NCBI GenBank assembly: GCA_951406725.2
Contig: OX597822.1
Coordinates: 64,108,001-64,172,000, forward strand
Source of the DNA: Octopus vulgaris
Lineage: Eukaryota
DNA length: 64,000 nucleotides
Reading direction: 5' to 3'
Shown here: positions 25,883-63,412 of the stretch, one piece after another
Numbering within the stretch: position 1 is the first letter of the stretch
Layout of the letters: each line of letters starts with the position of its first letter
Made by a program: the position numbers and the translations under genes
The notes under the pieces: model-generated
What the model was told of the DNA's origin: nothing
Database searches by the model: none
Seen by the model: the letters and a program-made list of their open reading frames with translations, nothing else

Positions 25883-26104
25883 ATATATGTTTATATATTT
25901 GAGTAGTTGAATGAATTATCTTATTAAGAATAATTCGAAAGATAACCGATACCTGGGTAGCAAATTCACATCAGAAAGAACACGGTTGAAGCTACGTCCC
26001 TAGGGCATAGACAACGTGTCTTCGTGCGGAAATTTGTATGTTTATTTTAAAATTATAAGTATATGAAAGAATGGAGTTGAACGACTAGTTAACAAATATC
26101 CTTT

Positions 26105-26189
26105 ATTCTCGACATATGCTTCGAAGGCTGCATATTCCTAATTCCGAATGAATAAGGAGTACATTATACAGATTTCTCATCAGGAAAAT
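26105..26189 (-). ncRNA. Hammerhead ribozyme with extended stem II, in the PLE pLTR
   Basis: Minus strand: attttc-CTGATGA-gaa[~50-nt hairpin]ttc-GAAG-catatg-TC-gagaat; palindromic stem III; GAAG instead of GAAA. Confidence 0.75.
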
Positions 26190-26748
26190 CAAGGAACTTA
26201 TGTCGACATCAAAATGCACACAAACTTTTAGCTGACCGCTCTCAAGGAGCCCATGGCGATAATGAGTGTCTCTTTATAATGAGTGACGTCAGAGTGGCTG
26301 AATGTAGAAGAATCTAGAAGTTTCTAAAGGTTCAAGAGTTCAAACGAAGTAGGAGGAGGGAGGCATAAGAATAGTAAGGTGAGAGAGTGCAGGTTAAAAG
26401 AATGGTGGGTTTAAATGATTTCTTTTGTGGATGAGTGCCTGTGTGTGTGACTGTATATAACTGTCTTAATGTGTGTATGTGTGTGTCTGAATGCGTGATT
26501 GTGTTTGTGGATGGGTAGATGTCAGAAAACTGACTGCTGTGAAGTGAAAGATCTGTGTCTGTGTGTTCGATTATGTTTACTGTAGAGAAAGGAAAGTAGA
26601 TAGCGAAAGGGAGAAAGAATCGGGCGAGGTGAGAGGCAACGCAAGAATGGATAGTAGTAATTGGGAATATAAGAAAATCTTTTTGACTGTTGGGGTGAAA
26701 TATAGGAAAAAATTTTTTGGGAAATCGAGGGGTTATCTATATTAGTCA

Positions 26749-28270
26749 CTATTTATATGAGTGAAAGGTGTGTCTTTTCCAGTGTAAACACCTGTAGGAT
26801 CTTTCGACGATTGTGTTTATTAAAGGGCCTTTGGCGAACAAAATATGAAAAAGTTCGGAATTACAGATGCCACAAAATTTTCTGCCTTTATCAAACGGGA
26901 AGGACACCGACAAAATGGACCATTCGAGCTTGAACGTAGTGTTATTGTTCTTCAGACGCCAGACTAATTTGCTTAGCCCCGTGCTGTGTTGCTTTCTCTT
27001 ATCTCTGAAAGTGGAATAATGGTTGGAGATCCTTTGGGATAATTTAGAAGAGGTTCCGCCAATATAGAAGTAGACATCGGTTCCAGAAGAGATTTTGCAT
27101 TGGTAAGTGGTGTTTCTAATTTTGGAATTTTTGGATAAGAACTTTCATCTGTTGGGGTTGGTTTCCGATACTAAGACAGAGTTTTTATTGTTGTGGTAGG
27201 TGTAAAAATTGTTGCTGGCTTTGGCCACGATACTATTCATCTTATTATCATTACTATTAGTCGTAATATCGTCGGCAAATTCCCTGGCTATAGGAATGCT
27301 GTGATTGTTATCATCAATAATATAACTGTTATTAAGAATGCTGGTACTATTACCACTAACACCACCACTGTTAATAATCTGGCTAATGTTATTATCATTA
27401 TTACTATTGCTAACGCTAATGCTGCTATGAATGTTGCTAATATCCATACTACTTCTATTATTATTATTATTGTATGTTACGTTGGAATGGGTAAGGGCGG
27501 TGTCGCTACTCATGGGTGGAGAGACCCTATTTAGCAGCTTATTATTGTGGGAAGCTATTATCTGCGAAAGATTTTTAGTATTTGAGAATGCTATTCTTAC
27601 TTTATGCGAATTTATAGTGGAGTAGTATCTAGGATTCCTAGGAAAATTCTTAGTAACGGCTTCACGGAATTGTAAAGGGAGATTAGACCTGATTTGTCTC
27701 CCGAAAGGAATCACAAACCAGATATAGTTTTTTTTGTTCTTGGAATGGCTGCGAGTGTTGACATTTACATTAAAGGGTATATTTCTGTGTTGTAGAATGG
27801 GTTTAGGTTTACGCTGGCCTCCCCTGGTCCGTAAGTTATTATTGTAAACTATATATTTGTGTCGACGTTGCTAGAGCTGAAATCACTATTCATGTTATTT
27901 ATATTATTATTAGAAGTTATCTTATCTTGATGGGCAGATCTTAGTTTAGGATGGGCCGGATCGATATATGATACCTTATCCCTATAACCGGCCTTTGACA
28001 AGGCGGCATTATAAAATTCTGCTTTCTGTTTAAAAATGTCGACATTTGCTGATAACTTAGATAGTCTTAAGGATATATTTTAAACCAAATTATCAGTGAT
28101 AGTTTTTGCATGGTTACTGAAAATACTGACATATTTTAGGCTCGTAGACGGCTTATGGTAAGGGAAGTAAGAATTATTATGCAAATTTAGGGTAACATCT
28201 AAGAAATTGGCCTTAGTTAGTTCGTTGTCAAAAATTATGCTCATGCCCATCCTGCTGAAAAATCTAACTA
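26749..28270 (-). pseudogene. Disrupted PLE ORF (RT thumb, linker, GIY-YIG)
   Basis: Stops at 28080 (TAA) and 27145 (TGA), frameshift near 27850; frame is continuous from 27714 through the TGA into the GIY-YIG domain. Confidence 0.85.
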
Positions 28271-29600
28271 ATCTATTTTCCACTTTTTATTGATGTCTTC
28301 TCTGAAGTCGTGTTCGAAGACTTTCCCTATTTCATCGTATAGTTTGTTCTCCAGGAAACCCATCACCAGGTTGGCATATGAAGGTGCGAATTTTGTACCC
28401 ATGGCCGTGCCCTTTATCTGTCGGTATGTCTTGTTGTTGAATGAGAATGTATTTTCTTCGAGTATTAATTGGGTGGCTTGGGTGATAAAGTTTGTCTTGA
28501 AGCGTTTGTCTATAAGTTCTCTGTATTTTTCTATTGATTGTTTTATTGCTTCTAGACCTAGGGCGTGTGGTATATTTGTGTATAAATTTGTGACATTAAA
28601 GCTTGCAAGTATGGTGTTTTTCGGGACTGTATTTAGAATGTGTGTGAGGAAGTCTATGTCATCTCTTATGTAGCTTGGTATCTGTGGGCATAAAGGTTTG
28701 AGGAGTACATCTATGAAGTGGCTTAGTTGTTGTGTTGGTGCCTGGGGTCCTGTCACTATTGGTCTCATTGTGAGGTCTGCAGGCCTTTGTATTCTTATAT
28801 AGTGGTTCCTCTGTTCCTTTATGGCTCTCTGTATTTCAGGGCTTTTATGAATTTTAGGTAATCCATAAAAATTGCTTTCTTTGGTTCTTGAGTTGCATAG
28901 ATAGTCTTTCTCCTTATCTGTAAAGGAGTCCTGGTATTTATTGACTAAAGTTCTAATTTTTTTTATTGTTGCTTTCTCCGGTGGTGTTGGTTCCTCTTTA
29001 TAGTATGTCTGGTTGTTCAGTAACTCCAGTATCTTTTCTTTGTAGTAATCTGTATCCATAATAACTATTGCTCCACCTTTGTCAGCTTCTTTTATAATGA
29101 TTGACTTGTCATTTTTCAGTTTTTGTAAGGTTTGTTTTTTTCCTCTGCGGAGATTCTGTTTGCATTTTGTGTGTGTTGAGAGGGAATTTGGATATTGTCT
29201 CTATGTATGCGTCAAGGTGTTTGTCACTTCCCTTGTAAGGGGTGAAATGGGATTTGTTTCTTATGATTGAGTTATCTTCTGTTTCTTTATTTTCAAAGAA
29301 TTCCATAAGGCGGAGGTGGCGGCTGAAGTTGTCTATATCAGTTTTTAGTTCTATGAGGTTTGGAGTGGGTGCAGGTGTAAATTTGAGGCCTTTTAGTAGT
29401 AGGTTCATTTCATTTTCGTTAAGTTCTCTTTTGGATAAGTTTATTATTTTGGGGTTCATGTGTTTTGTGAGTTCATCCGGAATTTTTGGTGTATTGGGTC
29501 TGGAGTATGGTTGAAGTATCCTCTCCCTAAAAAAGGGGTTGTGTTGTTGCGTCTCCAAATTCCATTTTCAGTTCTTAGCTTTTCTTGTAGTAGTAGGGGT
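28268..29600 (-). pseudogene. Penelope-like RT, N-terminal half (a different PLE family)
   Basis: IINLSKRELNENE..LL.KGLKFTP; KEADKGGAIVIMD; FYGLPKIHK; MRPIV; FNVTNLYTNIP; YRQIKGTAMGTKFAPSYANL; breaks off just before YxDD. Confidence 0.93.
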
Positions 29601-40565: not shown

Positions 40566-41324
40566 GTTAGCGGCGTAAATTACGCTGGGAGAAGAACTAC
40601 GCTGTGGCTCAAAATGCGAGAAATAGCAGCGAAACTAACTTCAAATCACACCAAGCCGTTTTAAAATAATAATGGACACATCAGACTATATAGCCCTTAA
40701 TATACAAAAAGACTGGATGGTCACGGCCAGGTCGCCTTTCATAATAGGCCTGTTGGATTGGGGGTAAAACAATCATCTGTCATATGAGGCTGAGTTAACG
40801 ATTGATCGTCTACATAGCTATTTGTCCAGTTAGAAATAGCAGTAAAATCTCTCTAACACCACTACTGTCTTAAACACGAAAGTCACAACTAACTAATGTC
40901 GTTGCAAGAGAAGAGAGAGAAGAGTTTTCAACAGACAAATATTAAAAATGGAAAAATAAAAATAAAAACTTTAACAATTTTATTGCCACAAGACAGAGAC
41001 AAAGATATTGATATAATGGAGCCAAAAAATCGACTTTATTGATGGCAACAAGACCGCGTGTACACATACACACAAACACACACGAATTTCACCAATAAAG
41101 ACATTTCCGTTTGTAACGTTGCTAAAAGCAGTCACAGACTAATCAAGAGTGAATTAGTAGAGGGCAGGTTACTACGTCAGACTTATACGTCGAAAGAATT
41201 TGCTATTCTTCTTGGCCATGTTGTTAAGAAAAGAAACGGATGAAACCTCCTTGCCCACCAAAAAACGCATGTCTTACTAAAGACATGGTACGTTCCTATG
41301 TAACAACAAGCCATTAGTTTCATA

Positions 41325-41922
41325 TTTCTTTACTGCCCACAAGGGGCTACACACAGAAGGGACAGACAAGGATAGACAAACGGTTTAAGTCGATTACATC
41401 GACCCCAGTGCGTAACTGGTACTTATTTAATCGACCCCGAAAGGATGAAAGGCAAACTCGACCGCGGCGGAATTTGTACTCAGAACGTAGCGTCAGACGA
41501 AATACCTATTTCTTTACTACCCACAAGGGGCTAAACACAGAGAGGACAAACAAGTACAGACAAACGGATTAAGTCGATTATATCGACTCCAATGCGTAAC
41601 TGGCATTTAATTTTTCGACCCCGAAAGGATGAAAGGCAAAGCCGACCTCGGCGGAATTTGAACTCAGAAGGTAACGGCAGACGAAATACCTATTTCTTTA
41701 TTACCCACAAGGGGCTAAACACAGAGGGGACAAACACGGACAGACATAGGTATTAAGTCGATTACATCGACCCCAGTGCGTAACTGGTACTTAATTTATC
41801 GACCCCGAAAGGATGAAAGGCAAAGTCGACCTCGGCGGAATTTGAACTCACAACGTGACGCAGACGAAATACCGCTAAGTATTTCGCCCGGCGCGCTAAC
41901 GTTTCTGCCAGCTCGCCGCCTT
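41325..41922 (-). mobile_element. Head-to-tail trimer of SINE family B
   Basis: Three ~180-bp units; only the unit ending at 41922 has the ggcggcgagctggc head. Confidence 0.9.
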
Positions 41923-51954: not shown

Positions 51955-52350
51955 GCTTACATACAGAACACGCATACGCATAGATAAATGAGTAAAAGTG
52001 TGCGTCTTGATCTTTCCCCCGTCTCTTACTCTCTCTCTCTCTCTATATATATATGTGTGTGTGTGTGCGTGTGCGTGTGCGTGTGTATATGTGTGTGTAT
52101 GCGTTTGTGTGTGTTTGCGCGTGAGTGTGTATTCGTGCGTACGTGTATGCGTTTATGCGTGTGCATATGTGTGTGTGTACGCACATACATATTCACACGA
52201 ATGTATGTATGTATGTATGTACATACAGATGCATATATGTGCGTATATGTAGTTGCCCAATGAAATTAGTTAAACATTGCGGATACAACATCATTAACCG
52301 ATATTATATGTGTGCTCAGGCTCGTATCCATACACATATACACACATACA

Positions 52351-52418
<68 letters not shown>

Positions 52419-52529
52419 TATACATATACATATATTTACGTATATACTATATATATATACATACATACATACATACATTCATACATACATACATACATAC
52501 ATACATACATACATACATACATACATACG

Positions 52530-52595
<66 letters not shown>

Positions 52596-52738
52596 TGTAT
52601 GTAGGTATATACTATTGTACGTATGTTTATGTTACTAGTATTGGTTAATTAAGATGTGCCCGCAATGTGTAACTAATTTCAACACATGCTTCCCCACTCA
52701 CATCACTATCCCCCACCTCAAGCACACACAGAGTGAGA

Positions 52739-52781
<43 letters not shown>

Positions 52782-53048
52782 GGAGAGAGAGAGAGAAAGA
52801 GCGAGAGAGAAAGACAGGGGGAAAGAGATGAAGGAAGAGTCCAAGTCTAGTTGTTCCTGTTTGTTTCTATTTGTATAGATACAGGTTATCTTCAGCATCT
52901 TCTTCAATATCTTGTTGGTGCCAGTATGTCTTGGCGAATATCAGAAAGTACTGAACCGGTGTGACATAACTCCCTAAATGGAATGATATATACATACATG
53001 CATAAATACAAACATACATACATACATGGATATATACATATACATATT

Positions 53049-53275: not shown

Positions 53276-53667
53276 GCTTACATACAGAACACGCATACGC
53301 ATAGATAAATGAGTAAAAGTGTGCGTCTTGATCTTTCCCCCGTCTCTTACTCTCTCTCTCTCTATATATATATGTGTGTGTGTGTGCGTGTGCGTGTGCG
53401 TGTGTATATGTGTGTGTATGCGTTTGTGTGTGTTTGCGCGTGAGTGTGTATTCGTGCGTACGTGTATGCGTTTATGCGTGTGCATATGTGTGTGTGTACG
53501 CACATACATATTCACACGAATGTATGTATGTATGTATGTACATACAGATGCATATATGTGCGTATATGTAGTTGCCCAATGAAATTAGTTAAACATTGCG
53601 GATACAACATCATTAACCGATAATATGTGTGCTCAGGCTCGTATCCATACACATATACACACATACA

Positions 53668-53717
<50 letters not shown>

Positions 53718-53819
53718 TATACATATACATATATTTACGTATATACTATATATATATATATACATACATACATACATACATACATTCATACATACATACA
53801 TACATACATACATACGTAC

Positions 53820-53884
<65 letters not shown>

Positions 53885-54031
53885 TGTATGTATGTATGTA
53901 GGTATATACTATTGTACGTATGTTTATGTTACTAGTATTGGTTAATTAAGATGTGCCCGCAATGTGTAACTAATTTCAACACATGCTTCCCCACTCACAT
54001 CACTATCCCCCACCTCAAGCACACACAGAGT

Positions 54032-54086
<55 letters not shown>

Positions 54087-54349
54087 GGAGAGAGAGAGAG
54101 AAAGAGCGAGAGAGAAAGACAGGGGGAAAGAGATGAAGGAAGAGTCCAAGTCTAGTTGTTCCTGTTTGTTTCTATTTGTATAGATACAGGTTATCTTCAG
54201 CATCTTCTTCAATATCTTGTTGGTGCCAGTATGTCTTGGCGAATATCAGAAAGTACTGAACCGGTGTGACATAACTCCCTAAATGGAATGATATATACAT
54301 ACATGCATAAATACAAACATACATACATACATGGATATATACATATACA

Positions 54350-62694: not shown

Positions 62695-62858
62695 GGCGTA
62701 GCAGTGGCTGTGTGGTAAGTAGCTTGCTTACCAACCACATGGTTCCGGGTTCAGTCCCACTGCGTGGCACCTTGGGCAAGTTTCTTCTACTATAGCCTCG
62801 GGCCAACCAAAGCCTTGTGAGTGGATTTGGTAGACGGAAACTGAAAGAAGCCCGTCGT
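62695..62858 (+). mobile_element. SINE family A 5' half
   Basis: Head with boxes A and B, body to gaagcccgtcg. Confidence 0.9.
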
Positions 62859-62881: not shown

Positions 62882-62965
62882 TCGCGCCAAATTTATCGGC
62901 AGCAAATAAATATAAGCCGCCGATCGGCGGCTTATATTTATTTGCTGCCGATAAATTTGGCGCGA
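62882..62965. repeat. Perfect 84-bp palindrome with no spacer
   Basis: 62882-62923 is the exact reverse complement of 62924-62965. Confidence 0.97.
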
Positions 62966-63051
62966 GTGCGATGATTTGAAAATTTTAGGTCAGATATTGC
63001 CGAGACAGGGAGAGAAGTGCCTCGTGAAAATATCTGTTCCGATCTGGCTGT

Positions 63052-63156
63052 TTTCTTACTGACGAATCTATCGGCCTATGGAAGATTGGCTTGATTTAAT
63101 TTAATCAGGTTAGTTTACCATTAAACAATAGATGAAACGGTGCATCGTATAAGAAA
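63052..63156 (+). ncRNA. Intact-looking hammerhead ribozyme with long stem II
   Basis: tttctta-CTGACGA-atctat-[56 nt]-atagat-GAAA-cggtgcatcg-TA-taagaaa: 7-bp stem I, 6-bp stem II base, near-palindromic stem III, GUA site. Confidence 0.9.
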
Positions 63157-63371
63157 GTACAGGGTAAATGTTTTTTTAATTTTCTCCTGGTTTGCGGAAT
63201 TAATGTTATTTTGCGGTTGAAGCTTTGGCTGTTATTTCTAGTGGGTGAATGGCCTATTATGGCCGTTCCTTGATTGTGATGTTGAACTTATAAATGGTCT
63301 ATGACTATTTAATTTTTTCCCACTAGGCCGCTGGTGGCAAAAAAATTCTACAAAATTTTTTGCCACCCTAT

Positions 63372-63412
<41 letters not shown>

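What the first reader, a model, noticed from the sequence alone, without database searches (positions are those of the whole stretch)
62882..63380. Perfect 84-bp palindrome capping the best-preserved long-stem-II hammerhead element
A ~500-bp (TA)n-flanked element begins with a spacerless palindrome centred on ccgatcgg, as expected from hairpin-primed second-strand synthesis or opening of a covalently closed hairpin end. The ribozyme at 63052-63156 has an intact core and all three stems, and its insert folds (gattggcttgatt/aatcaggttagtt). Zero mismatches imply a young insertion; this is the best candidate for activity.
Basis: partly seen in the sequence, partly recalled or inferred. Interest (0 to 1): 0.75.

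Follow-up and report, generated by a model that had tools for sequence, protein, structure and literature searches.

The report
Inverted arm of a hammerhead retrozyme
The palindrome is real but is one case of the back-to-back arms that most copies of this abundant 490-base ribozyme repeat carry, a known kind of jumping element likely pasted in by a Penelope-type enzyme, and this copy is neither unusually young nor the best one to test.

Summary
Observation confirmed: perfect 84-bp palindrome (62882-62965) and a complete type I hammerhead (63052-63156, predicted cut after 63149). The element is a single, 5'-truncated copy of a 490-bp tandem unit with about 1,500 insertions in (TA)n: a non-LTR retrozyme. 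Of 164 insertions examined, 116 are two arms head to head; 108 pair one fixed long end (A) with one fixed short end (B), none pairs like with like. Near-symmetric junctions are 3-5 times commoner than chance and four sisters have spacerless palindromes at other centres, so there is no fixed hairpin end. Both arms share variants, and symmetric junctions pile up just downstream of the ribozyme cut (replicated, 8 of 19 vs 9% expected). Best reading: two Penelope-type reverse transcriptases copy one RNA from both sides of a break and stop at the same point. This copy is odd only in that its short arm ends at a non-standard place. 'Youngest, best candidate' fails: zero mismatches in 42 bp is the family norm, 183 of 187 ribozymes are intact, and a monomer cannot make the circle. 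Cleavage, reads across the centre and the partner enzyme are untested.

The parts
62695..62857 (+). Very high-copy short repeat (SINE-like; tRNA origin and octopus type recalled, not tested) whose TA tail is the target
   Evidence: sequence; contig depth far above the element; its end also flanks sisters L147, L178, L184
62858..62881 (.). Left (TA)n target half
62882..62923 (-). Short inverted arm = unit positions 1-42; outer end at a non-standard place (not A, not B)
62923..62924 (.). Junction: self-complementary AT shared by both arms (unit 490 and 1); in the unit this lies beside a small hairpin
62924..63379 (+). Main arm = unit positions 1-457 of the 490-bp retrozyme unit, 2 differences from the closest sister (L180); private substitutions at 63005 and 63157
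63052..63156 (+). Type I hammerhead with 68-nt stem II and 3-bp stem III; predicted cut after 63149 (unit 226|227)
63274..63285 (+). Short-end site B (unit 351-362), not used as an end in this copy
63375..63379 (+). Long-end site A (unit about 452-469), the 3' end of this copy
63380..63410 (.). Right (TA)n target half

Best explanation
This is a truncated single copy of a 490-bp non-coding hammerhead repeat (non-LTR retrozyme), and its palindrome is the junction of two back-to-back arms, likely written by a Penelope-type reverse transcriptase priming from both sides of a break in (TA)n. Shown: unit, tandem arrays, fixed ends A and B, strict A-with-B pairing, shared variants between arms, excess of symmetric junctions. 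Inferred: tandem transcripts are cut by the ribozyme and circularised; a dimeric enzyme starts one cDNA at A and one at B, 105 nt apart, on the same RNA; when both stop at the same point their 3' ends are joined through 0-8 matching bases, giving a palindrome. Inferred for this copy: both cDNAs stopped at unit 490/1 and joined through AT; the B-side arm lost most of its length by a template jump or a later deletion, leaving 42 bp.
For: Family: 1159 candidates, 40 scored, arrays of 488-490 bp up to 14 units; 784 forward-strand A-end and 300 forward-strand B-end sites with 0 in the reversed control. Architecture: 116 of 164 insertions two-armed; 108 A+B, 0 A+A, 0 B+B, 8 with one odd end; 272 of 273 A or B ends abut (TA)n (sets 2 and 3 were picked by such an end). 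Symmetric junctions within 15 nt: 15 of 59 vs 4.5 permuted, replicated 18 of 49 vs 3.7. Arms differ by 0.5% vs 3.3% median to other loci (52 insertions). Neither arm contained in the other in 29 of 108. Symmetric junctions whose furthest 5' point lies in unit 227-256: 7 of 19 post hoc, 8 of 19 vs 9% expected when predicted beforehand (P 1.3e-4). Two autonomous Penelope-like families in the genome show the same long-with-short pairing in (TA)n: Neptune-type 3 of 3, Hydra-type 10 of 10 complete pairs. Literature: inverted 5'-truncated copy and a tail at one end (PMC8557442); two RT start sites, both strands cut and extended, predicted dimer (PMC11167929).
Against: This copy's short arm does not end at B; only it, and perhaps L248, among 116 two-arm copies has an odd end on (TA)n, so its own route is not shown and fold-back fits it equally on containment. 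The nearest other locus is as close as the partner arm (0.6% vs 0.5%), so same variant is shown, same molecule is not. No autonomous element shares DNA with the unit. The hammerhead has no compensatory change in 28 copies, is not the lowest-energy fold and has A-U at the base of stem II. Over all arms the excess of 5' ends at 227-241 is weak (10 vs 4.6, P 0.02; not significant after scanning), and refined ends lie at 232-243, which a stall at stem I also explains. In vitro, PAc start sites did not differ between strands and cleavage was not needed for insertion (PMC11167929).
Confidence: 0.6

Rival explanations
1. Same element, but this palindrome arose by fold-back: one cDNA primed at A ran to unit 490, its AT end snapped back, 42 nt were copied from the cDNA itself and then joined to (TA)n.
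For: The short arm is wholly contained in the main arm and ends at a non-standard place, as fold-back predicts; one-arm insertions show that a 5' end can join (TA)n directly.
Against: Only 2 self-complementary bases and no loop; the class 'symmetric junction with odd end on TA' is 1 of 164, whereas all 38 symmetric A/B junctions end at a fixed site; 21 of 31 in-register pairs have B reaching further 5' than A, which fold-back cannot give.
Confidence: 0.3
2. Library or assembly chimera.
For: No contig crossed the centre in four public runs; the centre is unique in the genome.
Against: Only 42 bp are inverted, between two different flanks, ending on (TA)n; over 100 sisters have ordered inverted arms with fixed ends; 31-letter contigs break at palindromes and the runs may be other individuals.
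Confidence: 0.04
3. Integrated form of a DNA with a covalently closed hairpin end, opened at a fixed site.
For: Spacerless perfect symmetry.
Against: Spacerless centres fall at unit 1, 30, 198, 249 and 276; most junctions are asymmetric; no coding capacity in the element.
Confidence: 0.03
4. Miniature inverted-repeat DNA transposon or satellite grown by unequal crossover.
For: TA-flanked, tandem arrays; the 2026 preprint discusses local amplification by crossover.
Against: No terminal inverted repeat common to copies; polar structure with fixed 3' and ragged 5' ends; arrays sit inside two-arm insertions whose arms share variants.
Confidence: 0.03

Closest known systems
Metazoan non-LTR retrozymes (Cervera and de la Pena 2020, PMC7229834; Li, Clavereau and Pollet 2026, bioRxiv 10.64898/2026.07.22.740005)
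   Same: Non-coding, low-GC tandem unit with one type I hammerhead per unit, dimers to multimers plus solo copies, self-paired circle predicted (z -5.4 vs 40 shuffles), co-occurring with Penelope-like elements.
   Different: Unit of 490 nt is above the 150-450 bp quoted in 2020 but within the 51-972 bp of the preprint; 68-nt stem II; inverted arms and fixed ends were not found described for retrozymes ('inverted' 0 times in PMC7229834; once, in a reference title, in the preprint). Circles and cleavage untested here.
Penelope-like element insertions: inverted 5'-truncated copy and 'tail' (Craig et al. 2021, PMC8557442; Frangieh et al. 2024, PMC11167929)
   Same: Head-to-head arms, two fixed 3' ends, tail at one end, (TA)n target, no discernible target duplication.
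   Different: Tail is 105 nt rather than 30-40; no ORF; strict per-insertion pairing, shared variants and symmetric stops are counted here and were not found in the eight searches.
LINE-1 twin priming (recalled, from no call)
   Same: Both ends of the break prime cDNA; arms point outward; junction with microhomology.
   Different: In L1 the two arms copy non-overlapping parts and the second primer anneals at variable sites; here arms overlap, can each exceed one unit, and start at two fixed sites.

Membership tests
Non-LTR retrozyme | [quoted passage not shown] | tested here: met
   Family: (53 of 164 insertions with two or more intact ribozymes in one arm). This copy itself is a solo monomer.
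Non-LTR retrozyme | No protein coding, no LTR/PBS/PPT, GC under 50% | tested here: met
   Six frames all interrupted; no direct terminal repeat; PBS/PPT not searched separately.
Non-LTR retrozyme | Self-cleavage of the transcript | not testable with these tools
   Indirect only: core kept in 183 of 187 while N7 and the GUA/GUC triplet vary; junction pile-up 3' of the cut.
Non-LTR retrozyme | Expressed as linear and circular monomer RNA | tested here: inconclusive
   Only contigs of one run guessed to be RNA cover the family; not evidence of transcription.
Type I hammerhead ribozyme | CUGANGA and GAAA core, NUH triplet, stems II and III closed, stem I open | tested here: met
   98.7% of cells paired in 28 copies, no compensatory change; Rfam does not detect it.
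Penelope-like (PLE-mobilised) insertion | Inverted 5'-truncated arm, tail at one end, microsatellite target | tested here: met
   for this copy the tail end (A) and TA target are met, the short end is non-standard.
Penelope-like (PLE-mobilised) insertion | Sequence shared with the pLTR or 3' end of an autonomous family | tested here: not met
   No homology to the Neptune-type or Hydra-type families sampled; only the top hits of 6136 and 17594 candidates were seen, so a partner may exist.
Hairpin-ended DNA element | Fixed palindrome centre | tested here: not met
   Centres vary.

The most novel reading that the evidence does not exclude
Penelope-type enzymes integrate as an asymmetric dimer: two reverse transcriptases start at two fixed sites on one RNA molecule, one from each side of the break, run in file and fall off together at the template's 5' end. 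Palindromes like this one are the fossil of that run-off, and their pile-up just 3' of the hammerhead cut records in vivo cleavage and the use of cleaved linear RNA alongside circles.
Probability: 0.35. Interest if true: 0.65.

Novelty: new member of a known kind. Interest (0 to 1): 0.4.

Why it matters
The locus itself is ordinary. The family matters because how Penelope-like elements make their inverted arms and tails, and how retrozymes are copied, are stated open questions (PMC8557442, PMC11167929). A small non-coding template with fixed start sites, countable junctions and a ribozyme cut gives sharp predictions that can be tested in vitro.

Tried and rejected
Reads across the centre: searches gave contigs only; no listed piece crossed it; neither support nor refutation. 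Rfam: no hammerhead match; the microRNA hits on the palindrome are below gathering score and reflect the hairpin only. Partner search: Neptune-type family (781-aa RT plus GIY-YIG) has no canonical hammerhead in the 3' part scanned and no homology; a weak hit in L196 lay in unrelated flank; short-stem-II pattern gave one chance-like match; a variant-core pattern gave none; Hydra-type 3' region scored no better than shuffles and gave no BLAST hit. An apparent A/A pair 8 kb apart (L153) proved to be two separate A+B insertions. Covariation: none; the first structure string was out of register, so those results were discarded and model R1 was not used. Covariance search of the window found no second family member. 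General excess of 5' ends at the cut is not significant after a scan correction; two ends first placed exactly at unit 227 are really near 232-233. Sequence and word look-ups of earlier findings were blank.

Full report
Observation. The palindrome is as described: 62882-62965, arms of 42 bp, no spacer, no mismatch; its centre occurs once in the genome. The hammerhead has stem I at 63052-58/63150-56, core CTGACGA at 63059, a 68-nt stem II with the quoted helix, GAAA at 63134, a 3-bp stem III with a TGCA loop and a GTA triplet ending at 63149. The region folds well (z -3.3), though the lowest-energy fold is not the hammerhead, which lies 2.25 kcal/mol higher, mid-range among 78 distinct family sequences. 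Rfam misses it.

What the element is. A search of the own genome (2.8 Gb, 227 contigs; octopus-like by recall and by earlier notes, not tested) gave 1159 candidates, of which 40 were scored: arrays of a 488-490 bp unit at 96-99% identity, up to 14 units. With a natural unit from L031 as ruler (position 1 = window 62924), the window copy is positions 1-457 plus an inverted 1-42. It codes for nothing. End patterns followed by (TA)5 gave 784 forward sites for a long end A and 300 for a short end B (reverse counts are inflated by redundant matches), about 1,500 and 600 in all. This fits the non-LTR retrozymes of PMC7229834 (passages and parts 2-3 of 6 read) and of bioRxiv 10.64898/2026.07.22.740005 (parts 1-2 of 5 and passages; supplements not seen).

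Insertion grammar. Three samples were read: 40 top-scoring loci, 60 position-ordered loci picked by an A or B end and 60 further loci picked by a B end. They hold 164 insertions: 116 two-armed head to head, 44 one-armed, 4 complex. Of the 116, 108 pair A with B, none pairs like with like; of the 8 others, 2 are cut by the fetched edge, 1 is an A end with an internal gap, 3 have a non-TA flank, and 2 (L248 and the window copy) remain. Several one-armed copies carry a tiny arm of the opposite type. In samples 2 and 3 one end was fixed by selection; the other was free.

The palindrome among its sisters. Junctions at which both arms begin within 15 nt of each other are 15 of 59 against 4.5 after permutation and 18 of 49 against 3.7 in the replicate. 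Spacerless perfect palindromes occur at four other centres (L191 79 bp, L260 66, L283 53, L290 25) and far longer perfect arms with 3-5 nt loops exist (L288 442 bp, L057 303, L067 246). So the centre is not fixed, which removes the hairpin-end idea. The two arms of an insertion differ by 0.5%, against a median 3.3% to other loci and 0.6% to the nearest (52 of 65 two-arm insertions had enough overlap): same variant, not proven same molecule. In 29 of 108 neither arm is contained in the other, and in 21 of 31 in-register pairs the B arm reaches further 5' while the A arm reaches further 3'; a fold-back on the first cDNA cannot give these. Two cDNAs are needed.

Link to the ribozyme. Among symmetric junctions (within 30 nt) the furthest 5' point fell in unit 227-256, just after the predicted cut, in 7 of 19 cases (post hoc). 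Written down as a prediction, it recurred in 8 of 19 against a 9% share (P 1.3e-4; 2 of 19 in the 30 nt before the cut). Against over-reading: across all arms the excess is modest and fails a scan correction, and refined ends lie at 232-243 with none at 220-231, which fits run-off from a cleaved RNA or a stall at stem I. Core conservation (183 of 187, found by flanking anchors with a loose stem III filter) with free N7 and GUA/GUC triplets suggests selection for function; no pair covaries in this young family.

Which enzyme. Inverted 5'-truncated copies, a tail at one end and (TA)n targets are the described marks of Penelope-like elements (PMC8557442; passages and section 11). A Poseidon protein cuts and extends both strands, starts at two RNA sites that bound the tail, and is predicted to be a dimer (PMC11167929; parts 1-2 of 4); there the start sites did not differ between strands and cleavage was not required. 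This genome has a young Neptune-type family (781-aa RT plus GIY-YIG, two ends about 41 nt apart) whose 3 two-arm cases pair tail with no tail, and a family with the DKT, CxxC and CxH motifs given for Hydra, a long-stem-II hammerhead and ends about 160 nt apart, whose 10 complete two-arm cases pair long with short (1 more cut by an edge, 1 divergent case not callable). Neither shares DNA with the unit, so the partner is unidentified; Hydra-type is the likelier kind by ribozyme design (inference).

This copy. Its right end is a normal A end. Its left arm ends at unit 42 on (TA)n, which is rare. I read it as a two-cDNA junction at unit 490/1 joined through AT whose B arm was shortened by a jump or deletion (arms with internal jumps exist: L037, L059, L159, L277); fold-back is the close rival. 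It is young, like the whole family, but not the youngest: 42 clean pairs are expected about 80% of the time at 0.5% divergence, and it has 2 private substitutions where 53 of 80 other long arms have 0 or 1. With one ribozyme it cannot release a unit-length RNA; 53 of 164 insertions can. It is 'best preserved' only against the Hydra-type hammerhead at about 26105-26190, whose GAAA reads GAAG. Reads could not confirm the centre.

Novelty. Kind known; family and its counted junction rules not found in eight literature searches (other papers seen as listings only; subscription journals and supplements are outside the library, so older Penelope papers may say more). Earlier notes of this scan already describe the same or similar families as twin-primed from two fixed sites; they agree but are not independent evidence. 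Verdict: real, explained, new member of a known kind; interest 0.4.

Noticed in passing
window 25890-28270 (- strand): Broken Hydra-type Penelope-like element with GIY-YIG at 26752-27144 and a long-stem-II type I hammerhead at about 26105-26190 whose GAAA is GAAG; family has 17594 candidates, frames up to 833-883 aa, two 3' ends about 160 nt apart.
   Followed up: partly
window 28277-29513 (- strand): Frameshifted fragment of a second Neptune-like family, 45-48% identical to the 781-aa ORF, abutting the Hydra-type element.
   Followed up: no
L222-L237 (G000, many contigs): Young Neptune-type family with intact 781-aa ORF, an overlapping upstream frame of up to 479 aa, repeated CCAAT/TGACG-like blocks in the 3' part and a 41-nt tail; no canonical hammerhead seen.
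   Followed up: partly
unit 43-50 with 219-227 (window 62966-62973 with 63142-63150): In the predicted circular fold a distant strand pairs across stem III and the cut site, which could keep the circle from recutting; the short arm ends right beside this helix.
   Followed up: no
L040 1450-2110: One-arm insertion whose two flanks are inverted copies of each other.
   Followed up: no
L137, L139, L141, L142, L160, L164, L167: Older relatives (73-88% identity) that keep the A end and a variant B end; could lead to the parent element.
   Followed up: no
window 41323-41873; 52054-53000 and 53373-54300: Three tandem copies of a 184-bp SINE-like unit; and a roughly 1.3-kb local duplication of microsatellite-rich DNA.
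   Followed up: no
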